Of a stretch of 32,000 nt of DNA, positions 1-20,486 are shown piece after piece; within the stretch, counting starts at the first letter, position 1; each line of letters starts with the position of its first letter. Source of the DNA: Candidatus Saccharimonadota bacterium (GTDB lineage Bacteria; Patescibacteriota; Saccharimonadia; Saccharimonadales; UBA4665); the NCBI GenBank assembly GCA_002952755.1, contig CP025011.1, positions 840,001 through 872,000 on the forward strand. Direction: 5' to 3'. Made by a program: the position numbers and the translations under genes. Below the pieces are notes generated by a model that worked only from the letters and a program-made list of their open reading frames with translations, did not search any database and had not been told where the DNA came from.

Positions 1-2391
1 TGCGTACGCACGCACCGCCCTTGGCTCGGGAGGGCTGAGGGGCGATAAGCTGTCGACAATATTGGACTCTCCGAGAAGGCCCTTATACGCTAATAGAACA
101 GAGCCGATATTGTTACCATACAGCAACCGATCAATTCCCAACCTACTGGCAAGTGTGGCACGTTCGTATTCCGTAGCAGTTGACCGAATGCTCTTCGAGA
201 ATGAAATCGTTCGCTCAGCCCCACCACCAGACAACTCCAAAATACCGTTTGCCAGCGCCTCACTGACGCGTACTGACGCGTCTTCTGCATCTGCTCGATA
301 CCGGGCGATAATTTTTTTCTGAAGCCAATGTGTGGTTGGAGCGTCCAACTCGTGTAACGAGGCGAGATCTTCGGGTGCCACGTCAATTATTTCCGCGCCC
401 ACAACTGTACTGAACCCGCGCGGACGAGCTGGCTCAGACAGCTCGTCGTCTTTTGTCACATGGCGTAATAACAACATATCTTCGCTGAGCAACGAGAGCG
501 TAGGTGGAATATGGGGTGACTCTTCGGACGATCGGCTAGTCAAAGCCTCGACTTTAGAGAGAAGGCCTTCTTGGATATACCTCCCCCAATCTTCCACGCC
601 GAGAGCACTGGCGAGGCGCTGTCGATCGATAGTGGCACCATACAACAATAAGTCCAAGCCATAATGACTCGCCAATGCCAGACGTTCAAAAGGCTCCAAA
701 GGAATAGCGAAGGTTATATACCTTCCATTGACAGGATCGCGAATAGAGTTAACATGTGCTTGAAAATTGAGATCCTGCAGGACCGAAGGGGCACCAAGTG
801 CCGACGTCAATACACCTTGGTTAACGCACGCAAAAACTTGTTCTGCAACTTCATCAAACATTTCCAGTGGGTAGCAAGCAGCGACGCGTCTGACTTCCCA
901 GCGCTCCAGAAGTTTTCCGGCAGCTCCTCCTGCGACCCGGCCCGCAAATCTTCCATTAGCCTTTGCTATACGATAGGCCAGTTCAATCTCTTCCGGTGAG
1001 CCATTTGTCTTAATAGACCTTCGCCGCATAGCCCTGCCTTCAGTATCCTCTGCTGTAATCTTATCCAAAAATTCCTGTGCCGCCACAAGCGGATCGTTAG
1101 GGCGGTGTTTGGCGATACGGCGAAGCGTACCAGGGGTAATGCCAGGCCTAGCGCCGATAAAATCAACCAGGAGGCGCATATTATTAATAAATCTCTCGAG
1201 CGCATCGGCATAATTATCGGTGTTGCCCGTAGCGATATCCAACATATCCGCGACGCGAAGGTAAGGGTGATCGGCTCCGTAGCGAGCAATACTGGCTTCG
1301 ACACGCTCGGTGATCGCCCGAAAAACAGCCTCCGGATCAGCGACCGCATTTACGGTCTTCCGGATCATGCCACGCCTTATGGGAGTGCTGCCGACAAACC
1401 GCTCTTCAAGAGCCTTTTCAACTGCTGGGTCGACTAACTTATTGAGGCGGGCGGCCATACGCAAAGATGCTTCAGAACCGCCCGGATGTAGCAGTCGGTT
1501 AGCGTGAAGCATGGTCTTGTACCTTTTAAGTACCCGTTCCGGCTCCCGCCAGCTGCGGCGGACCATATCATGGAATTCAGAATTCGACATATCTCCGTCA
1601 AGATGCAAGGTAGCAAGCTGCTTCCACTCTGCCGCGCTACGGCTCAACCCCTGCTTAGCCGGCCTCAAAAAGCCGTTCCGGGCAAGCTCGATAACATCCT
1701 CAAGATACTCACAAATGATCGGGAAGTTGTCTTCAAGCTTGAAATGTTCTGGCGAATAGCGGTTTTCGCGGCTGGCCCGAGCTTTGGTAGGATTTCCTTT
1801 AGTCGTCGTAAACCGTACAAAGTCAGCTTGTTGACAGAGGACGAGGGCGATAGACTCAACGGCTCGTTGCGCATCGGTTATCTTTATCAGCTGCCGGTCC
1901 GACATATCCTCAAAAATTTGGGGAGTACGGTCCGCTAGCTTCTCCATGATGTGTTCTCCGATACGAGGAAGCTCAGTTGGTCGAGGGCCATCAATATAAA
2001 ACTGACCGCTTCTTACTCCTCGCCGTAAATGAGTCAATGCAAGGTGGGGGTCAAATGGTAACTCACGCAAATCAAATGGCAGCGCGACGATATCTAGCCT
2101 ATCACCACGGTCATCAGCCAGAACTTCGGCAGCAACCTGCTTGCCGGCAATAAAGGCTCCATAGCCCAGCATACCTGCAATCTCACGGCTATAGGGATTA
2201 CACACTGGCAGCTGTAAACAGTTAAGGCAGGCCTCCTCAGCCTCTGATAATAATGAACGGTCTTGCTGCGCCGCTCCCGCATCAATCTGCGCAAACAGCT
2301 CGCGTTCCTCACCAACACAGGCGCCATATGGGATAATAAATTCCCGTCCGTTCGCGCGTCGCGCTTGGTCGTCTGGCTGGTACTCGCTCAC
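1..2391 (-). CDS. Large protein (at least 797 aa, C-terminus beyond the window) with an N-terminal WhiB-like 4-Cys domain and repeated HTH-like modules
   Basis: Absent from the supplied ORF track because there is no stop inside the window. I reverse-complemented every 60-nt line by hand. From GTG at 2391 (GGAG 8 nt upstream; in-frame TAA at 2415-2413) the frame reads 797 sense codons down to position 1. The N-terminus reads ..PYGACVGEERELFAQ..(29 aa between Cys1 and Cys2)..AEEACLNCLQLPVCNPY..GYGAFIAG, i.e. Cys-x29-Cys-x2-Cys-x5-Cys plus ELF, which is the Wbl pattern. Two related modules are present: FERLALASHYGLDLLLYGATI and YERATLASRLGIDRLLYGNNI. Confidence 0.85.
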   Translation of the reverse strand, partial: MSEYQPDDQARRANGREFIIPYGACVGEERELFAQIDAGAAQQDRSLLSEAEEACLNCLQLPVCNPYSREIAGMLGYGAFIAGKQVAAEVLADDRGDRLDIVALPFDLRELPFDPHLALTHLRRGVRSGQFYIDGPRPTELPRIGEHIMEKLADRTPQIFEDMSDRQLIKITDAQRAVESIALVLCQQADFVRFTTTKGNPTKARASRENRYSPEHFKLEDNFPIICEYLEDVIELARNGFLRPAKQGLSRSAAEWKQLATLHLDGDMSNSEFHDMVRRSWREPERVLKRYKTMLHANRLLHPGGSEASLRMAARLNKLVDPAVEKALEERFVGSTPIRRGMIRKTVNAVADPEAVFRAITERVEASIARYGADHPYLRVADMLDIATGNTDNYADALERFINNMRLLVDFIGARPGITPGTLRRIAKHRPNDPLVAAQEFLDKITAEDTEGRAMRRRSIKTNGSPEEIELAYRIAKANGRFAGRVAGGAAGKLLERWEVRRVAACYPLEMFDEVAEQVFACVNQGVLTSALGAPSVLQDLNFQAHVNSIRDPVNGRYITFAIPLEPFERLALASHYGLDLLLYGATIDRQRLASALGVEDWGRYIQEGLLSKVEALTSRSSEESPHIPPTLSLLSEDMLLLRHVTKDDELSEPARPRGFSTVVGAEIIDVAPEDLASLHELDAPTTHWLQKKIIARYRADAEDASVRVSEALANGILELSGGGAERTISFSKSIRSTATEYERATLASRLGIDRLLYGNNIGSVLLAYKGLLGESNIVDSLSPLSPPEPRAVRAYA

Positions 2392-2409
2392 TTCTATCTC
2401 CGTACGTTT

Positions 2410-2440: not shown

Positions 2441-2621
2441 TATGCGGCTCATATTCGCTTGAGCTAGTATTGTTGCATCCTATCAGCACATCTAGATTTT
2501 ATCTTCCGCCTTGGCGTGAAAAACTAACCGTAATCAGCTCAAGGACGGTCACCGCCAAGAGGATAGCGACTTGGCTGCGTCATTTGCAGATCGGAGTATA
2601 CCGCGAACGTGATCTCTTAAT

Positions 2622-4866: not shown

Positions 4867-5442
4867 TCATTGATACTTAGTCATGCTAGGTACGAGCTCT
4901 CTAAGTGCAAGCTCGGCCAGTATGGCGTCGACATTCTGCTCAACCGTGTGCTTAGTGGTTTCGAGAATGACCTCAGGGGCAAGCGGAGGTTCGTACGGAT
5001 TACTCTCATGAACGCCAGTGAGGTTGTGCAGTTCACCCGCACGCGCCTTCTGGTATAAGCCTTTGGTGTCGCGCTCTTCACAGACTGCCAGCGGCGTGGC
5101 AATGTGCACTTCCAAAAACTGGCCCTTAGCGAACTTTGTGCGCACCCTGTCCCGTGTTACACGATAAGGACTTATCAATGCACAAACGGCGATGCCACCC
5201 CCATAGACGATTTGCGAGGCATCATGCCCAACGCGCAGCACATTTCTATCGCGATCATCACGGCTAAAACCAATATTTTTCCATCTTCTTACAACATCAC
5301 CATCAAGCAGAGAAACATCACGCCCTTCCGCTCTAAGCCTATCCCATAGTAATGCAGCAGTCGTGGTCTTACCCGAGCCGCTTAAGCCCGTAAACCAAAC
5401 GCAAAAGCCAGAGGTTTGATTACCCCCTTCGAGGCGACTCAT
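4867..5442 (-). CDS. cysC: Adenylylsulfate (APS) kinase
   Basis: 191 aa. Motifs: P-loop FTGLSGSGKTT, LDGDVVR, FSRDDRDRNVLR, ISPYRVTRD, RDTKGLYQKARAGE..LTGV..PYEPP. This is the canonical APS kinase motif series. Confidence 0.9.
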   Translation of the reverse strand: MSRLEGGNQTSGFCVWFTGLSGSGKTTTAALLWDRLRAEGRDVSLLDGDVVRRWKNIGFSRDDRDRNVLRVGHDASQIVYGGGIAVCALISPYRVTRDRVRTKFAKGQFLEVHIATPLAVCEERDTKGLYQKARAGELHNLTGVHESNPYEPPLAPEVILETTKHTVEQNVDAILAELALRELVPSMTKYQ

Positions 5443-5534
5443 CTTTTTATAATCATTTCTATAAGGACTTTACGACTTAGCGGCATACTCCACGCATACA
5501 CCTTTATACATAGCTCCTCGCATCATATACAGGT

Positions 5535-5551
5535 TAGCAAATAATTTGCTA
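5535..5551. promoter_or_regulatory. 17-bp perfect palindrome in the divergent cysC/sulfotransferase promoter region
   Basis: TAGCAAAT-a-ATTTGCTA, located in the 169-bp gap between the starts at 5442 (minus) and 5612 (plus). Confidence 0.4.
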
Positions 5552-5611
5552 TGCTTACCAAAATAAATTATACGCTATCGGCGCGAGCCAATGGACGCGT
5601 AAAAAAGAAGG

Positions 5612-6469
5612 GTGCAGATGAGATATTCGGAAACAAGTAGGTCATCTCAAAACAATGAACCGAAACGCCTTGTCGCCGGATTTCGCAAGACAGGACGAAC
5701 ATGGATGCGTTTTATGCTTGCTGCCGGGCTTTTAGACACATATCCCATAGATGGGTTGGATGTGGACAGTTTAAGCTTAGCCAACGCATACACTGTGGTG
5801 CCAAACGACAAGATTGGAGCAGGGCGCGTATCTGGTCAGCCCACGTTCCAGTACCAAGGCCGCATGCCTCTGATTGAAATGACACACGAACCACATAAGA
5901 AGCCGCATAGCACCAGATTCGAGGACGCCCGAGTCGTTTTCATGACGCGCGACCCACGCGATATCATGGTTTCAGGCTGGTTTCATGACACAAGACAGCT
6001 CGACGAGTTGCACGACAGATTTCATGGCGGCCTTAGCGAGTTCATCCGGAGTCCCCGGGGCATCGGCGATTTTGTTGCCCACCTTAATTCCTGGGCATAT
6101 AAACTTGACGATAGCCAAGTCTTAACATACGAAGCGATGCGTCAAGATCCAGCCGCTGCCCTGCAGAAAACAAACGAGCTGCTTGATATTGGCTTGTCGT
6201 CCCAAAGCATCTCGCACGCCGTAGAGGCTGGCCACATAGATAGAATGCGTAAGATCGAAGTAAGGGACGGTATTCCTGGCCATGACTACGACAGATCAGA
6301 TCCGGATGCGCTCCGTGTTCGTCGGGGAGTAGCCGGGGGTTTTGTCGACCATATATCTGAATCCGATCAAGCTTATATCGGCTCTGCGCTTACCGAATTA
6401 AACCCGAGAGCGTCGGGCATCGTCGCCATGACTGGCTACTTTGGTCCAGAAGCTCTCCAACAACTCTAG
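5612..6469 (+). CDS. PAPS-dependent sulfotransferase (small-molecule type)
   Basis: 285 aa. The 5'-PSB-like loop is RKTGRTWMRFMLA (compare PKSGTTW). The 3'-PB-like motif is FMTRDPRDIMVS. The start may be GTG 5612 or ATG 5618. Confidence 0.8.
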   Translation: MQMRYSETSRSSQNNEPKRLVAGFRKTGRTWMRFMLAAGLLDTYPIDGLDVDSLSLANAYTVVPNDKIGAGRVSGQPTFQYQGRMPLIEMTHEPHKKPHSTRFEDARVVFMTRDPRDIMVSGWFHDTRQLDELHDRFHGGLSEFIRSPRGIGDFVAHLNSWAYKLDDSQVLTYEAMRQDPAAALQKTNELLDIGLSSQSISHAVEAGHIDRMRKIEVRDGIPGHDYDRSDPDALRVRRGVAGGFVDHISESDQAYIGSALTELNPRASGIVAMTGYFGPEALQQL

Positions 6470-18586: not shown

Positions 18587-19191
18587 GCATTCTCCTTACT
18601 CAAATGCTCGTGCACAATCTGCCAATCACCATTTATCCTTTTTAAGACATTCGTACCTTTACCCTCGTAAACTTGCCGCTTAATATACCGCACTGCTTCT
18701 TCAAGATTCGACTGTAATTCATTGGCAGTATCGACCTTCAGCGTTTGCTCCTTCCATGGAGTGTAGGCTTTACGTCGTTCTTCGACTCTCTCCCAAGTTA
18801 CTTCCGGCAGACCATGCAGGCTCCTGACACGTTCTTCGATACGTTTTTTGTGAAGAGCCGTGTCGCTGGTGGCGCATTCGATAATAATCAAAGTGGCATT
18901 TTGCTTTTTGGCAAGCTCCCGCCAGACACCTTTTGCTTCTTCCTCGGCATTGACGGCATCGATCACGACCGAGCTACCGAGTTTGAATTGCTCAGTAGCC
19001 AGGGATTCGGCAACAAGATAAGCTGCATAGCCTGTTTCGAAGCTCTTTTCTATACCAGATCTAATAATTGCTGACTCGATGGGATCAACAGAAAATAGCG
19101 GCAAACGTAGCTTCTTGGCCACCGCTTCAGCAAGGGTACTTTTGCCGCTGCCGGGCAGGCCAGAGAGGAGGATAAGGTTGTTTTTTGTCAC
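18583..19191 (-). CDS. P-loop kinase (AAA_33-like) with a short NTF2/SnoaL-like C-terminal tail
   Basis: 202 aa. Walker A LSGLPGSGKST. GTG start within a GTGA overlap. The tail VLKRINGDWQIVHEHLS resembles the last strand of SnoaL/DUF4440 proteins. Confidence 0.75.
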   Translation of the reverse strand: MTKNNLILLSGLPGSGKSTLAEAVAKKLRLPLFSVDPIESAIIRSGIEKSFETGYAAYLVAESLATEQFKLGSSVVIDAVNAEEEAKGVWRELAKKQNATLIIIECATSDTALHKKRIEERVRSLHGLPEVTWERVEERRKAYTPWKEQTLKVDTANELQSNLEEAVRYIKRQVYEGKGTNVLKRINGDWQIVHEHLSKENA

Positions 19192-19895
19192 GCCGCGATA
19201 CCCGTCACATTACCTGCCATGTCAGTCTGATATACTCCTTTGGATAAATCTACCAATGTAAGTTTGTTGCCGAACGGATCCTCGACAAGAGCGACTTTAC
19301 CAACCGGAATATCTTCAAGCGGCATTAGTATCTTGCCGCCTGCGCGTTCAAACACAGCGGCCGCATGCTCGGCCGATTCGACTAGAAAATCGGTTTCCGG
19401 GTCAAGTTTGGTACTGAGCACTAACTCGCTCTCGCCTAAGCGCACGGCTGCCATGTCTTCTTTTCTCCAAACAGTTTGCATACCAAGCTGTTCACGGTAA
19501 AAATCTAATCCTTCTTGGATGCTCGGCACTTTTACGAGTATCGCGTCTATTTTCTTGAGCACCGGTACGTCGTCGAGTCGAGTATCGGCTGTTATCTTCT
19601 CGCCAATTGCTATGTGGCGAAGTGCAATATCAACTCCTCGTTCGTGATCAAGCACCACATTTGGCGATTCGGAATGGTTTACATACCGTGCCAGTCCGCC
19701 TTCAAAAAGATAGATCTGTCCATTGATATTATGTGCTGCTAAGTATCGTTCTGATGGCAGTGCTTTTAGTTCTTTAAAACTTATAGGCTTAAAATCAATG
19801 CTTACAACCACTTCGCCCTTTTTAAACTCGCGGGCAGCGTAGATGGCCTTACCATTCATGAGCCCTTGGCCGATGGTTACGTCGGTGGTGTTCAT
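19188..19895 (-). CDS. SET-domain protein fused to a VOC (glyoxalase/bleomycin-resistance fold) domain
   Basis: N-terminal half: AAREFKKGEVV..ARYVNHSESPN..IAIGEKIT (SET motifs). C-terminal half: ILVKVPSIQEGLDFYREQLGM...VALVEDPFGNKLTLVD (VOC). ATG 19895 has GAGGAG upstream and forms an ATGA overlap with the upstream stop. Confidence 0.8.
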   Translation of the reverse strand: MNTTDVTIGQGLMNGKAIYAAREFKKGEVVVSIDFKPISFKELKALPSERYLAAHNINGQIYLFEGGLARYVNHSESPNVVLDHERGVDIALRHIAIGEKITADTRLDDVPVLKKIDAILVKVPSIQEGLDFYREQLGMQTVWRKEDMAAVRLGESELVLSTKLDPETDFLVESAEHAAAVFERAGGKILMPLEDIPVGKVALVEDPFGNKLTLVDLSKGVYQTDMAGNVTGIAA

Positions 19896-20338
19896 TTGGT
19901 CTCCTCTGGTGCTGGTACATCCGTAATCCAAAGCTTACTCTTATCGTCCGGGTTGCCATAGTTATAGTTCACGGTAATTTCTTCGCCGGGCTGAATGGCT
20001 TTAAGCGCGGTAAAAGTGATGGTCTTTTCGGTCAGGTTCTTTTTATAAGTGGCATTTGGTTCGTAGGAGTGATTGTAGAGTGAACCGAACCCCAGGCAGA
20101 TGACCACTGGTTTTTGGCCTTCAGTTTTTTCGCTCTCTTGATCCCAAATGAAGTAATAATTGCGCAGATGTGTCGCTTTGATGTGATCGTAATCTTGGGC
20201 GGCAAGCTCAAGGATGGGACATGTTTCGATTACTTCGCCTTCAGTAATATCCGCAGCAGCAAACATTCCGCGACCCGCGTTTTCAATGCGGGAATCGGCA
20301 AGATAAATTTTGGATGGTGGGGTGATGGGTTCGGTCAT
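19892..20338 (-). CDS. SET-domain protein (putative lysine methyltransferase fold)
   Basis: Shows ENAGRGMFAAADITEGEVI, GSLYNHSYEPN and IQPGEEITVNY. ATG 20338 is preceded by GAGGAGGA. The track's N-terminal extension to 20452 is unlikely. Confidence 0.85.
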   Translation of the reverse strand: MTEPITPPSKIYLADSRIENAGRGMFAAADITEGEVIETCPILELAAQDYDHIKATHLRNYYFIWDQESEKTEGQKPVVICLGFGSLYNHSYEPNATYKKNLTEKTITFTALKAIQPGEEITVNYNYGNPDDKSKLWITDVPAPEETK

Positions 20339-20486
20339 TACAAATCCTCCTCGGCAATAAGCGGCGTTATCTCTACAAATCAAAGCTCTTCTTTTGGCCG
20401 TCAATCCACCCGTAACATAGCGCCTCATCCAGAACACCGGCGTAACTAACAAGGGGAACGCCCGAGGTCTCAGTTTTCATCTTATT

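What the first reader, a model, noticed from the sequence alone, without database searches (positions are those of the whole stretch)
1..2391. Unlisted ORF of at least 797 codons: a WhiB-like Fe-S cysteine motif fused to a very long C-terminal region
The ORF track shows only short overlapping ORFs here, which makes the region look non-coding or recoded. Manual translation of the minus strand gives an unbroken frame from GTG 2391 to position 1.

The first roughly 90 aa carry Cys-x29-Cys-x2-Cys-x5-Cys with ELF after Cys1 and a degenerate G[VI]WGG-like turn (GAFIAG). That is the signature of Wbl [4Fe-4S] proteins. Known Wbl proteins are about 80-140 aa and are regarded as restricted to Actinobacteria and their phages. 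A Wbl module at the head of a protein of at least 797 aa is therefore architecturally unusual.

The C-terminal part contains at least two diverged repeats: FERLALASHYGLDLLLYGATI and YERATLASRLGIDRLLYGNNI (12 of 21 identical). They look like HTH units.
Basis: partly seen in the sequence, partly recalled or inferred. Interest (0 to 1): 0.72.

Follow-up and report, generated by a model that had tools for sequence, protein, structure and literature searches.

The report
Distant WhiB-like module heading giant protein
A real 982-residue gene of a Saccharibacteria (TM7) bacterium begins with a four-cysteine module whose only detectable relatives are the actinobacterial WhiB iron-sulfur transcription factors; it belongs to an undescribed family in which about a third of members end in a complete sigma factor, which points to a WhiB-like link to RNA polymerase outside the Actinobacteria.

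Summary
The minus-strand frame 2391→1 is open for 797 codons. The complete gene encodes 982 aa and is identical in three independent assemblies. C25-x29-C55-x2-C58-x5-C64, ELF and both repeat motifs are present.

Pfam Whib does not match, the G[V/I]WGG Trp is missing, and the host is Candidatus Saccharimonadales, so this is not a canonical Wbl.

An exhaustive search found about 50 large relatives. In these, C55, C58 and C64 are invariant and C25 is ≥90% conserved. A 37-sequence profile of the N-terminal module hits only M. tuberculosis WhiB3 in the whole PDB (E 0.03). Against a Wbl profile, hhalign gives E 2.6e-5, and 0 of 150 cysteine-fixed shuffles reach that score. A confident AF2 model (pLDDT 89) retrieves only WhiB1 and WhiB3 from the PDB, but not significantly.

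Of 33 relatives, 10 end in σ70 domains and 2 in a true WhiB domain, which parallels Streptomyces WblP (Wbl fused to an ECF σ).

The two "HTH-like" motifs are the cores of a real ~75-aa tandem duplication (E 7e-15). Their similarity to σ region 4 is weak.

Best reading: a divergent Wbl-related, probably Fe-S, σ-associated regulator with a new architecture in a new phylum. Cluster binding and σ binding are inferred, not shown.

The parts
1..2391 (-). Codons 1-797 of a 982-codon gene (P0001). The last 185 codons lie beyond the window start.
   Evidence: Open frame. Full-length 982-aa product, identical in JGI and two Logan assemblies.
2397..2401 (-). Shine-Dalgarno GGAGA, 5 nt upstream of the GTG start at 2389-2391.
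   Evidence: Read directly from the sequence. The consensus promoter scan of 2300-2700 found no σ70-type promoter.
2122..2349 (-). N-terminal four-Cys module (residues ~15-90): IPxGxC(25)...ELF(33)..ID.G...AC(55)..C(58).Q...C(64)...IA...FIAG(80-83). This is the divergent Wbl-like, putative [4Fe-4S], domain.
   Evidence: Cys codons located. Conservation: Cys1, Cys3 and Cys4 in 37/37, Cys2 in 36/37, F33 in 35/37. PDB profile search hits only WhiB3. hhalign against Wbl gives E 2.6e-5, with shuffle controls. AF2 pLDDT 89. Foldseek returns only WhiB1 and WhiB3.
1987..2094 (-). Conserved segment following the module (residues 100-135: LPFDLRELP.DP..AL..LRRGVR..QF). It includes invariant R123 and a confident helix at 115-127.
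   Evidence: Family alignment. AF2 model.
775..1986 (-). α-helical body (residues 136-539) containing ~40-residue helical repeats (about residues 336-450). It has no known family.
   Evidence: No Pfam, NCBIfam, PHROGs or PDB match. Secondary structure is all helical. Repeat proteins P0047-P0049 match query positions 331-447 several times.
526..774 (-). Duplicated unit 1 (residues 540-622). Its core motif FERLALASHYGLDLLLYGATI is at 628-690.
   Evidence: hhalign of unit 1 against unit 2: probability 98.4%, E 7e-15, 72 columns.
22..258 (-). Duplicated unit 2 (residues 712-790). Its core motif YERATLASRLGIDRLLYGNNI is at 106-168.
   Evidence: The two motifs are 12 of 21 identical.

Best explanation
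The ORF is a genuine, monocistronic gene of a Candidatus Saccharimonadales (Saccharibacteria/TM7, Patescibacteria) bacterium. It encodes a 982-aa cytoplasmic protein of a previously undescribed family with at least 50 clusters at 50% identity.

Architecture:
(i) an N-terminal ~75-120-aa four-cysteine module that is a very divergent relative of the Wbl (WhiB-like) [4Fe-4S] domain;
(ii) a ~650-aa helical scaffold that includes a tandem duplication of a ~75-aa unit;
(iii) a disordered linker;
(iv) a variable C-terminal module.

In about one third of relatives the C-terminal module is a complete σ70-type or ECF-type sigma factor. In two relatives it is a canonical WhiB domain. In this protein it is a ~100-aa β-rich domain of unknown function.

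Proposed mechanism (inferred, not shown): the four Cys hold an Fe-S cluster, as in Wbl proteins. The module contacts σ region 4, in cis in the σ-fused paralogues and in trans on a separately encoded σ for this σ-less member. That would couple a redox, O2 or NO signal to transcription initiation. The helical body and the C-terminal domain would provide partner or target specificity.

Shown here: gene integrity, family membership, Cys conservation, the internal duplication, the σ and WhiB fusions in relatives, and Wbl as the sole detectable relative of the module. Inferred: cluster binding, σ binding and signal sensing.
For: Real gene: the frame is open, it has an SD, it is identical in 3 assemblies, and it has a 53-55%-identical full-length homologue in a labelled Saccharimonadales MAG with a nearby syntenic MTase-APH pair.

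Family: 52 representatives with E<=1e-3, most of them 780-1380 aa and aligned over positions ~16-770.

Ligand-binding Cys: C55, C58 and C64 are invariant and C25 is >=90% conserved at ~23% overall identity. In the 37-sequence module alignment the counts are 37/37, 36/37, 37/37 and 37/37.

Relationship to Wbl:
- The A3 profile against 177,635 PDB sequences returns only WhiB3 (E 0.032 and 0.042), aligned from Cys1 to Cys4.
- hhalign against 5 classic Wbls gives E 7.5e-4. Against 7 Wbls it gives E 2.6e-5, probability 75%, 81 columns, with the Cys and the GG turn in register.
- Shuffles with the Cys columns fixed give mean 12.6, sd 3.5, max 28.2, against the real score of 31.7; 0 of 150 reach it.
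- The AF2 model has pLDDT 89, and its helix / Cys / β-turn order matches the WhiB1 description (Bush 2018, PMC6282962).
- Foldseek against the PDB returns only 6ONU WhiB1:σA4 and 8CWR WhiB3. In the viral library, 5 of 10 hits are actinophage WhiBs.
- A Wbl HMM ranks family members first among 1727 ORFs.
- F33 sits 8 residues after Cys1, exactly as aromatic-patch residue F17 does in WhiB1, and is F in 35/37 (Wan 2026, PMC13013590).

Link to σ: Sigma70_r2 occurs in 10/33, r3 in 6, r1.2 in 5, r4 or r4_2 in 7, and Whib in 2/33, all C-terminal to the shared scaffold. [quoted passage not shown]
Against: No Pfam Whib hit, even at E<=10. The strict G[V/I]WGG motif and its Trp (AP4) are absent, and AP3 is not aromatic. 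The Cys1-to-Phe spacing varies from +8 to +20 across the family. The Foldseek matches are not significant (E ~9, TM 0.24-0.42). The best HMM E-values are only 0.03. The strongest hhalign figure depends on a small 7-sequence Wbl profile, typed partly from memory (though checked against Pfam), and hhalign rates it at only 75% probability. This particular protein has no σ domain, so any σ interaction would have to occur in trans. There is no experimental evidence of metal content, and four Cys could bind Zn instead. Only P0002 carries a taxonomic label. Labels for the σ-fused and WhiB-fused members' contigs could not be obtained.
Confidence: 0.55

Rival explanations
1. The four-Cys module is a structural zinc-binding (or other metal-binding) domain unrelated to Wbl, and the resemblance is convergence on a C...CxxCx5C ligand pattern. 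On this reading the protein is a large scaffold of unknown function, and the σ fusions in relatives are incidental.
For: Pfam Whib finds nothing. Foldseek is non-significant, with TM 0.24-0.42. The WGG Trp is missing. The CxxCx5C spacing also occurs in other Fe-S and Zn proteins (general knowledge).
Against: Shuffles with the Cys columns fixed never reach the real hhalign score (0 of 150). A PDB-wide profile search returns only WhiB3 and no other Cys-rich protein. ELF/F33 is in the WhiB1 register. The σ and WhiB fusions are recurrent, in 12 of 33 members.
Confidence: 0.25
2. The protein is mainly a σ-antagonist or σ-mimic. Its duplicated ~75-aa units are degenerate σ region-4-like HTH domains, relics of σ, that occupy σ4 docking sites or are bound by the N-terminal module in cis. 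It would then act as an anti-σ or a decoy rather than as a Wbl-type co-activator.
For: Unit 1 aligns to σ region 4 with the L..L..ER..L.L..GL pattern (hhalign E 0.003). The units are an ancient duplication conserved family-wide. The family is σ-associated.
Against: hhalign probability is only 10% for unit 1, and E is 0.17 for unit 2. There is no Sigma70_r4 Pfam hit in P0001 at E<=10. The family profile finds no PDB relative in the body. The σ-fused members keep both units in addition to a real σ4, so the units are not simply a replacement for σ4.
Confidence: 0.1
3. It is a canonical Wbl (a true member of PF02467), recently acquired from an actinobacterial host or an actinophage and fused to a long tail.
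For: Saccharibacteria are epibionts of Actinobacteria (PMC12369343 abstract). One relative (P0026) carries a genuine WhiB domain.
Against: There is no PF02467 match. The module is conserved across a deep family at ~23% identity, so it is old rather than recent. In P0026 the true WhiB domain is C-terminal and distinct from the N-terminal module. No phage or plasmid homologues were found.
Confidence: 0.03
4. It is an artefact: a non-coding or recoded region, or two genes joined by a sequencing error.
For: The ORF list shows only short overlapping ORFs here.
Against: the ORF listing omits ORFs that run off the window. The 982-aa gene is identical in three assemblies. Full-length homologues align end to end.
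Confidence: 0.01

Closest known systems
Wbl (WhiB-like) [4Fe-4S] transcription factors, Pfam PF02467 (e.g. M. tuberculosis WhiB1, WhiB3)
   Same: Four conserved Cys with C-x(27-29)-C-x2-C-x5-C spacing. An aromatic residue 8 positions after Cys1 (F33, matching WhiB1 F17). The same order of helices around the Cys, followed by a Gly-containing β-turn. Wbl proteins are the only PDB relatives found by profile and by fold search.
   Different: Below the Pfam threshold. The turn is [VF][VI]GG (FIAG here) and lacks the Trp. AP3 is not aromatic. There is a variable insert after Cys1 in most relatives. The module heads a 982-aa protein rather than an 81-139-aa one. The host is Saccharimonadales, not Actinobacteria or actinophage.
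[quoted passage not shown]
   Same: The idea of a Wbl-type module and a σ factor in one polypeptide. Relatives P0004, P0006 and P0013 (ECF-like) and P0011, P0014, P0017, P0030 and others (σ70 r1.2-r4) combine the N-terminal module with a C-terminal σ.
   Different: The window's protein itself has no σ domain. The modules here are separated by a ~700-aa helical scaffold absent from WblP. The Wbl-like part is far more divergent. The phylum is different.
Group 1/2 σ70 factors (actinobacterial SigA/HrdB)
   Same: The C-terminal parts of 10 of 33 relatives are bona fide σ70 regions. Their best PDB matches are Streptomyces HrdB and mycobacterial SigA (E 2e-18 to 1e-15).
   Different: P0001 has no σ region. 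The shared 770-aa N-terminal part has no counterpart in any solved σ.

Membership tests
Wbl / WhiB-like (PF02467) | Four invariant cysteines (C-xn-C-x2-C-x5-C) that ligate a [4Fe-4S] cluster | tested here: met
   This covers the sequence pattern only. C25, C55, C58 and C64 are present. C55, C58 and C64 are invariant and C25 is >=90% conserved in 33 homologues. In the 37-sequence module alignment the counts are 37/37, 36/37, 37/37 and 37/37.
Wbl / WhiB-like (PF02467) | Actual binding of a [4Fe-4S] cluster | not testable with these tools
   This needs anaerobic purification with UV-vis, EPR or metal analysis.
Wbl / WhiB-like (PF02467) | G[V/I]WGG β-turn motif after the last Cys (Bush 2018) | tested here: not met
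   P0001 has F80-I81-A82-G83. The family consensus is [VF][VI]GG (G82 is G in 27/37, G83 is G in 31/37), and no member has Trp at the W position. AF2 does place a β-hairpin turn at 82-83.
Wbl / WhiB-like (PF02467) | Significant match to the curated Whib HMM | tested here: not met
   No hit at E<=10 for P0001, for residues 1-110, or for P0002. Positive controls score 54-98 bits.
Wbl / WhiB-like (PF02467) | Aromatic patch AP1-4 (WhiB1 W3, F17, F18, W60) for σA region-4 binding (Wan 2026) | tested here: inconclusive
   The AP2 equivalent F33 is conserved (F in 35/37, plus one Y and one H) and sits at Cys1+8 as in WhiB1. AP3 is A/E/T. The AP4 position is V/I. The AP1 position is L/F/I (F in 11/37).
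Wbl / WhiB-like (PF02467) | Wbl fold (helices held around the cluster) | tested here: inconclusive
   The AF2 model is confident (pLDDT 89). Foldseek against the PDB returns only WhiB1 (6ONU) and WhiB3 (8CWR), but at E 8.5-9 and TM 0.24-0.42. In the viral library, 5 of 10 hits are WhiB proteins at E 1.5-9.5.
Wbl / WhiB-like (PF02467) | Binds region 4 of the primary σ factor | not testable with these tools
   The only evidence is indirect: σ70 or ECF σ domains are fused to the same scaffold in 10 of 33 relatives.
Wbl / WhiB-like (PF02467) | Small protein (81-139 aa, with rare larger exceptions) restricted to Actinobacteria and actinophages | tested here: not met
   The protein is 982 aa. Its homologue is annotated in a Candidatus Saccharimonadales MAG. 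There are no phage or plasmid matches.
σ70 family | Regions 2 and 4 present | tested here: not met
   No Sigma70 Pfam domain in P0001 or P0002. These domains are present only in paralogous family members.
ZAS (zinc-binding anti-σ) domain | H-x3-C-x2-C motif | tested here: not met
   The residue four positions before C55 is A51 (…S-E-A-E-E-A-C-L-N-C…), read directly from the sequence. No anti-σ Pfam hit.

The most novel reading that the evidence does not exclude
Wbl-type Fe-S modules are not confined to Actinobacteria and their phages. A deeply diverged Wbl lineage exists in Saccharibacteria (CPR epibionts of Actinobacteria) as the head of giant scaffold proteins. These proteins are repeatedly fused to complete σ70 or ECF σ factors, and in two cases to a canonical WhiB domain. 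That would be Rosetta-stone evidence that the Wbl-σ region 4 partnership operates in cis in a second phylum, arising either from ancient shared ancestry or from acquisition from actinobacterial hosts.
Probability: 0.4. Interest if true: 0.8.

Novelty: new variant of a known kind. Interest (0 to 1): 0.66.

Why it matters
Reviews and a 2026 structural survey describe Wbl proteins as exclusive to Actinobacteria and actinophages (PMC6282962, PMC13013590). How they arose is an open question. A divergent Wbl-like module in Saccharibacteria, whose cultivated members are obligate epibionts of Actinobacteria, would widen that distribution. It sits on a conserved scaffold that in paralogues is covalently joined to σ factors or to a genuine WhiB domain. 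That supplies natural fusion constructs for studying Wbl-σ contacts, and it raises a testable question of host-to-epibiont gene flow versus ancient origin. It also gives a first functional handle (transcription, Fe-S sensing) on a family of at least 50 large 'hypothetical proteins' that no domain database recognises.

Tried and rejected
- Pfam, NCBIfam and PHROGs on the whole protein and on the N-terminus found nothing usable.
- tblastn against the phage and plasmid collections found no match.
- The first genome scan with a single sequence found nothing. The second found only the P0002 genome.
- The word-indexed searches with the N-terminal 130 aa and with the 33-sequence alignment added nothing.
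- PDB sequence searches with the 2-sequence profile and with the single N-terminus found nothing.
- The full-length AF2 model from 2 sequences was unusable (pLDDT 35).
- P0052 looked like a stand-alone 92-aa module, but it is a full-length member broken by one in-frame stop on a 1.8x-coverage contig.
- Reading the duplicated units as σ region-4 HTH domains is only weakly supported (E 0.003 and 0.17) and was kept as a rival, not a finding.
- The C-terminal β-domain has no PDB relative, and its stand-alone homologue sits on an uninformative 1.8-kb contig.
- No conserved gene neighbourhood was seen around family members.
- Organism labels for the contigs of the σ-fused and WhiB-fused members could not be obtained.
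- A TTGACA-N19-TAATAT promoter seen by eye is not supported by the consensus scan.
- tRNA and Rfam scans of the window were negative.
Full report
**1. Observation**

Translating the minus strand from 2391 to 1 gives 797 codons without a stop. An in-frame stop lies nine codons upstream of the GTG. A GGAGA Shine-Dalgarno sits 5 nt before the GTG. The ORF was missing from the ORF list only because that tool omits ORFs that run off the window.

The cysteines are C25, C55, C58 and C64, giving C-x29-C-x2-C-x5-C, and E-L-F33 follows Cys1. The two 21-residue motifs are at residues 568-588 and 742-762 and are 12/21 identical. Base composition is unremarkable.

**2. The complete gene and its host**

The big protein database holds the full-length product, P0001 (982 aa, 100% identical). 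It holds one other relative, P0002 (931 aa, 55% identical).

Using the neighbouring LOG-like gene as a handle, I recovered two further independent assemblies. Both carry an identical 982-aa gene, with 0 mismatches over the 2391 nt shared with the window, followed by a convergent NmrA-like gene. So the gene is not a frameshift artefact, and it is monocistronic.

P0002 is encoded in a MAG labelled Candidatus Saccharimonadales. NCBI calls it 'hypothetical protein' (HSW74666.1). Near the target gene, the window shares a methyltransferase-APH pair with that genome (55% and 48% identity, against 53% for the target). The window's proteins also occur on a 1.45-Mb contig. The other genes in the window are ordinary cellular enzymes and regulators, and there are no phage or plasmid matches. 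The host is therefore a Saccharibacteria (TM7, Patescibacteria) bacterium, not an actinobacterium.

**3. Direct test of the Wbl claim**

Pfam Whib does not match P0001, its first 110 residues, or P0002, even at E<=10. NCBIfam and PHROGs find nothing either.

An unfiltered HMM built from those five Wbls aligns all four Cys and ELF in register, but with only 2-4.5 bits.

**4. A hidden family**

The exhaustive profile search of 1.84 billion representatives found 52 proteins with E<=1e-3, of which 31 have E<=1e-30. Most are 780-1380 aa and align over query positions ~16-770.

In a 33-member alignment at ~23% identity, P21, C55, C58, C64, R123 and Y584 are invariant, and G23, C25, F33, D37 and G39 are >=90% conserved.

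Pfam on the members gives:

| Pfam domain | Members (of 33) |
|---|---|
| Sigma70_r2 | 10 |
| Sigma70_r3 | 6 |
| Sigma70_r1_2 | 5 |
| Sigma70_r4 | 4 |
| Sigma70_r4_2 | 3 |
| Whib | 2 |

All of these lie C-terminal to the shared scaffold. One example is P0026, with a WhiB domain of 77.6 bits at residues 813-881.

The family profile's only PDB relatives are σA, RpoD and RpoS, all in those C-terminal columns. The best are Streptomyces HrdB and mycobacterial SigA. Nothing matches the 770-aa body.

P0001 and its close kin carry a ~100-aa β-rich domain instead. That domain also exists as small stand-alone proteins and has no solved relative.

**5. Re-testing the N-terminal module with the deep alignment**

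- *hhalign.* A 40-sequence module profile against five classic Wbls gives E 7.5e-4. Adding the two true Wbl domains found at the C-termini of P0026 and P0031 gives probability 75% and E 2.6e-5 over 81 columns, with Cys1-4 and the GG turn in register.
- *Shuffle controls.* Full column shuffles give mean 10.2 and max 18.7. Shuffles that keep the four Cys columns fixed give mean 12.6, sd 3.5 and max 28.2. The real score is 31.7, and 0 of 150 shuffles reach it. The similarity therefore goes beyond the Cys spacing.
- *PDB profile search.* The 37-sequence profile (A3) against all 177,635 distinct PDB sequences at E<=10 returns exactly two sequences. Both are M. tuberculosis WhiB3 (E 0.032 and 0.042).
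- *Structure.* With A3, AlphaFold gives a confident model of residues 1-136 (pLDDT 89, pTM 0.79). It has a helix after Cys1, a helix ending at Cys2, short helices around Cys4, and a β-hairpin whose turn falls on A82-G83. That order matches the published WhiB1 description.
- *Foldseek.* Against the PDB it returns only WhiB1:σA4 (6ONU) and WhiB3 (8CWR), at non-significant scores (E ~9, TM 0.24-0.42). Against viral models, 5 of 10 hits are actinophage WhiBs, again not significant.
- *Rank test.* A Wbl-only HMM run unfiltered over all 1727 six-frame ORFs of every fetched locus ranks the family members first (E 0.008-0.44), after the WhiB tail it was trained on.

**6. Scoring against the published Wbl features**

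The features come; the scores come unless stated.

| Feature | Result |
|---|---|
| Four Cys | Met |
| AP2 | F33 is F in 35/37 and sits at Cys1+8, exactly as WhiB1 F17 does relative to C9 |
| AP3 and AP4 | Not aromatic |
| Turn motif | [VF][VI]GG (FIAG here), no Trp |
| Cys1-to-Phe loop | Varies from 8 to 20 residues across the family |
| Size and taxonomy | Do not fit |

The module should therefore not be filed as a member of PF02467. It is best described as a distant Wbl-related module.

A precedent for the architecture exists. [quoted passage not shown]

**7. The repeats**

The two motifs are the cores of a genuine tandem duplication of a ~75-residue unit: residues ~540-622 against ~712-790, hhalign probability 98.4%, E 7e-15. 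The duplication is conserved throughout the family.

Their pattern (L..L.P.ERLA.A..GL...) recalls σ region 4. The profile comparison is weak: E 0.003 and probability 10% for unit 1, and E 0.17 for unit 2. The HTH reading remains a lead. Further upstream, the body contains ~40-residue helical repeats shared with repeat proteins P0047-P0049.

**8. Mechanism**

The most economical reading is as follows. The four invariant Cys bind an Fe-S cluster, as in Wbl. The module contacts σ region 4, in cis in the σ-fused paralogues and in trans for σ-less members such as this one. The scaffold and the variable C-terminus provide specificity.

Only the sequence, family and fusion facts are shown. Cluster binding, σ binding and signal sensing are inferences. 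The main rival is a convergent Zn-binding domain unrelated to Wbl.

**9. Caveats**

- The homology signal is in the twilight zone in each individual test. Its strength lies in agreement across independent, unbiased searches.
- Only P0002 carries a taxonomic label. Attempts to label the contigs of the σ-fused and WhiB-fused members failed. Their GC (47-50%), a 50%-identical hydrolase shared with the window, and a 1.24-Mb contig are consistent with related lineages.
- The apparent stand-alone module P0052 is an artefact of an in-frame stop.
- No paper in the searchable library links WhiB or Wbl to proteins encoded by Saccharibacteria, TM7 or CPR bacteria.

**10. Verdict**

The feature is a new variant of a known kind: a divergent Wbl-like module at the head of an undescribed, σ-associated giant-protein family in Saccharibacteria.

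Noticed in passing
L004:8001-10706 (P0026) and P0031: P0026 carries both the divergent N-terminal four-Cys module and a canonical WhiB domain (Pfam 77.6 bits, residues 813-881) at its C-terminus. P0031 ends in a second, divergent Wbl domain whose turn reads MIGGG instead of GVWGG. If these contigs are Saccharibacteria, true Wbl domains exist outside Actinobacteria and their phages.
   Followed up: partly
L003:8001-11975 (P0011); also P0014, P0021, P0022, P0024, P0025, P0030, P0038: The σ region 4 of the σ-fused members has a ~20-residue insertion between the 'RYGL' helix and the HTH. The best PDB matches of their σ part are actinobacterial SigA/HrdB (E 2e-18 to 1e-15) rather than Thermus or E. 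coli (about 1e-10). Only some members keep the H-P pair that Wbls contact.
   Followed up: partly
L006:363-1217: The 92-aa 'stand-alone' module P0052 reads through a single in-frame stop into the normal family body (the same gene as fragment P0037). The contig is 1.2 kb at 1.8x coverage, so this is a sequencing error or a pseudogene, not a small Wbl-like protein.
   Followed up: yes
window 19188-20452 (-): Two adjacent, overlapping SET-domain genes, one of them a SET + glyoxalase-fold fusion. They lie within a tightly packed minus-strand run of small enzymes: P-loop kinases, an exo/endo-phosphatase, HAD, a GDSL lipase, a cytidine deaminase and a Ser hydrolase.
   Followed up: no
window 4867-6469: A divergently transcribed APS kinase (minus strand) and a sulfotransferase (plus strand), suggesting PAPS-dependent sulfation. 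Two methyltransferases and an APH-family kinase lie next to them. The MTase-APH pair is syntenic with the Saccharimonadales MAG locus L001.
   Followed up: partly
P0001 residues 880-982 (beyond the window; L007:13450-13764): The C-terminal ~100-aa β-rich domain, which follows a disordered Ser/Ala/Pro-rich linker, also occurs as stand-alone ~120-aa proteins (P0046, P0050, P0053). It has no Pfam or PDB relative.
   Followed up: partly
window ~1040-1385 (-) (P0001 residues ~336-450): About 40-residue helical repeats ('..TP..IR..A..NP.DP..A...Y...V..L...YG...') match proteins built from many tandem copies of the same unit: P0048 with about 6 copies, and P0049 with 12 matched stretches.
   Followed up: no
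window 2446-2465 (+): A terminator-like hairpin on the plus strand, inside the 230-bp intergenic region upstream of the gene. No consensus σ70 promoter was detected there, although a TTGACA (2435-2440) and a TAATAT (2410-2415) lie 19 nt apart on the minus strand.
   Followed up: no
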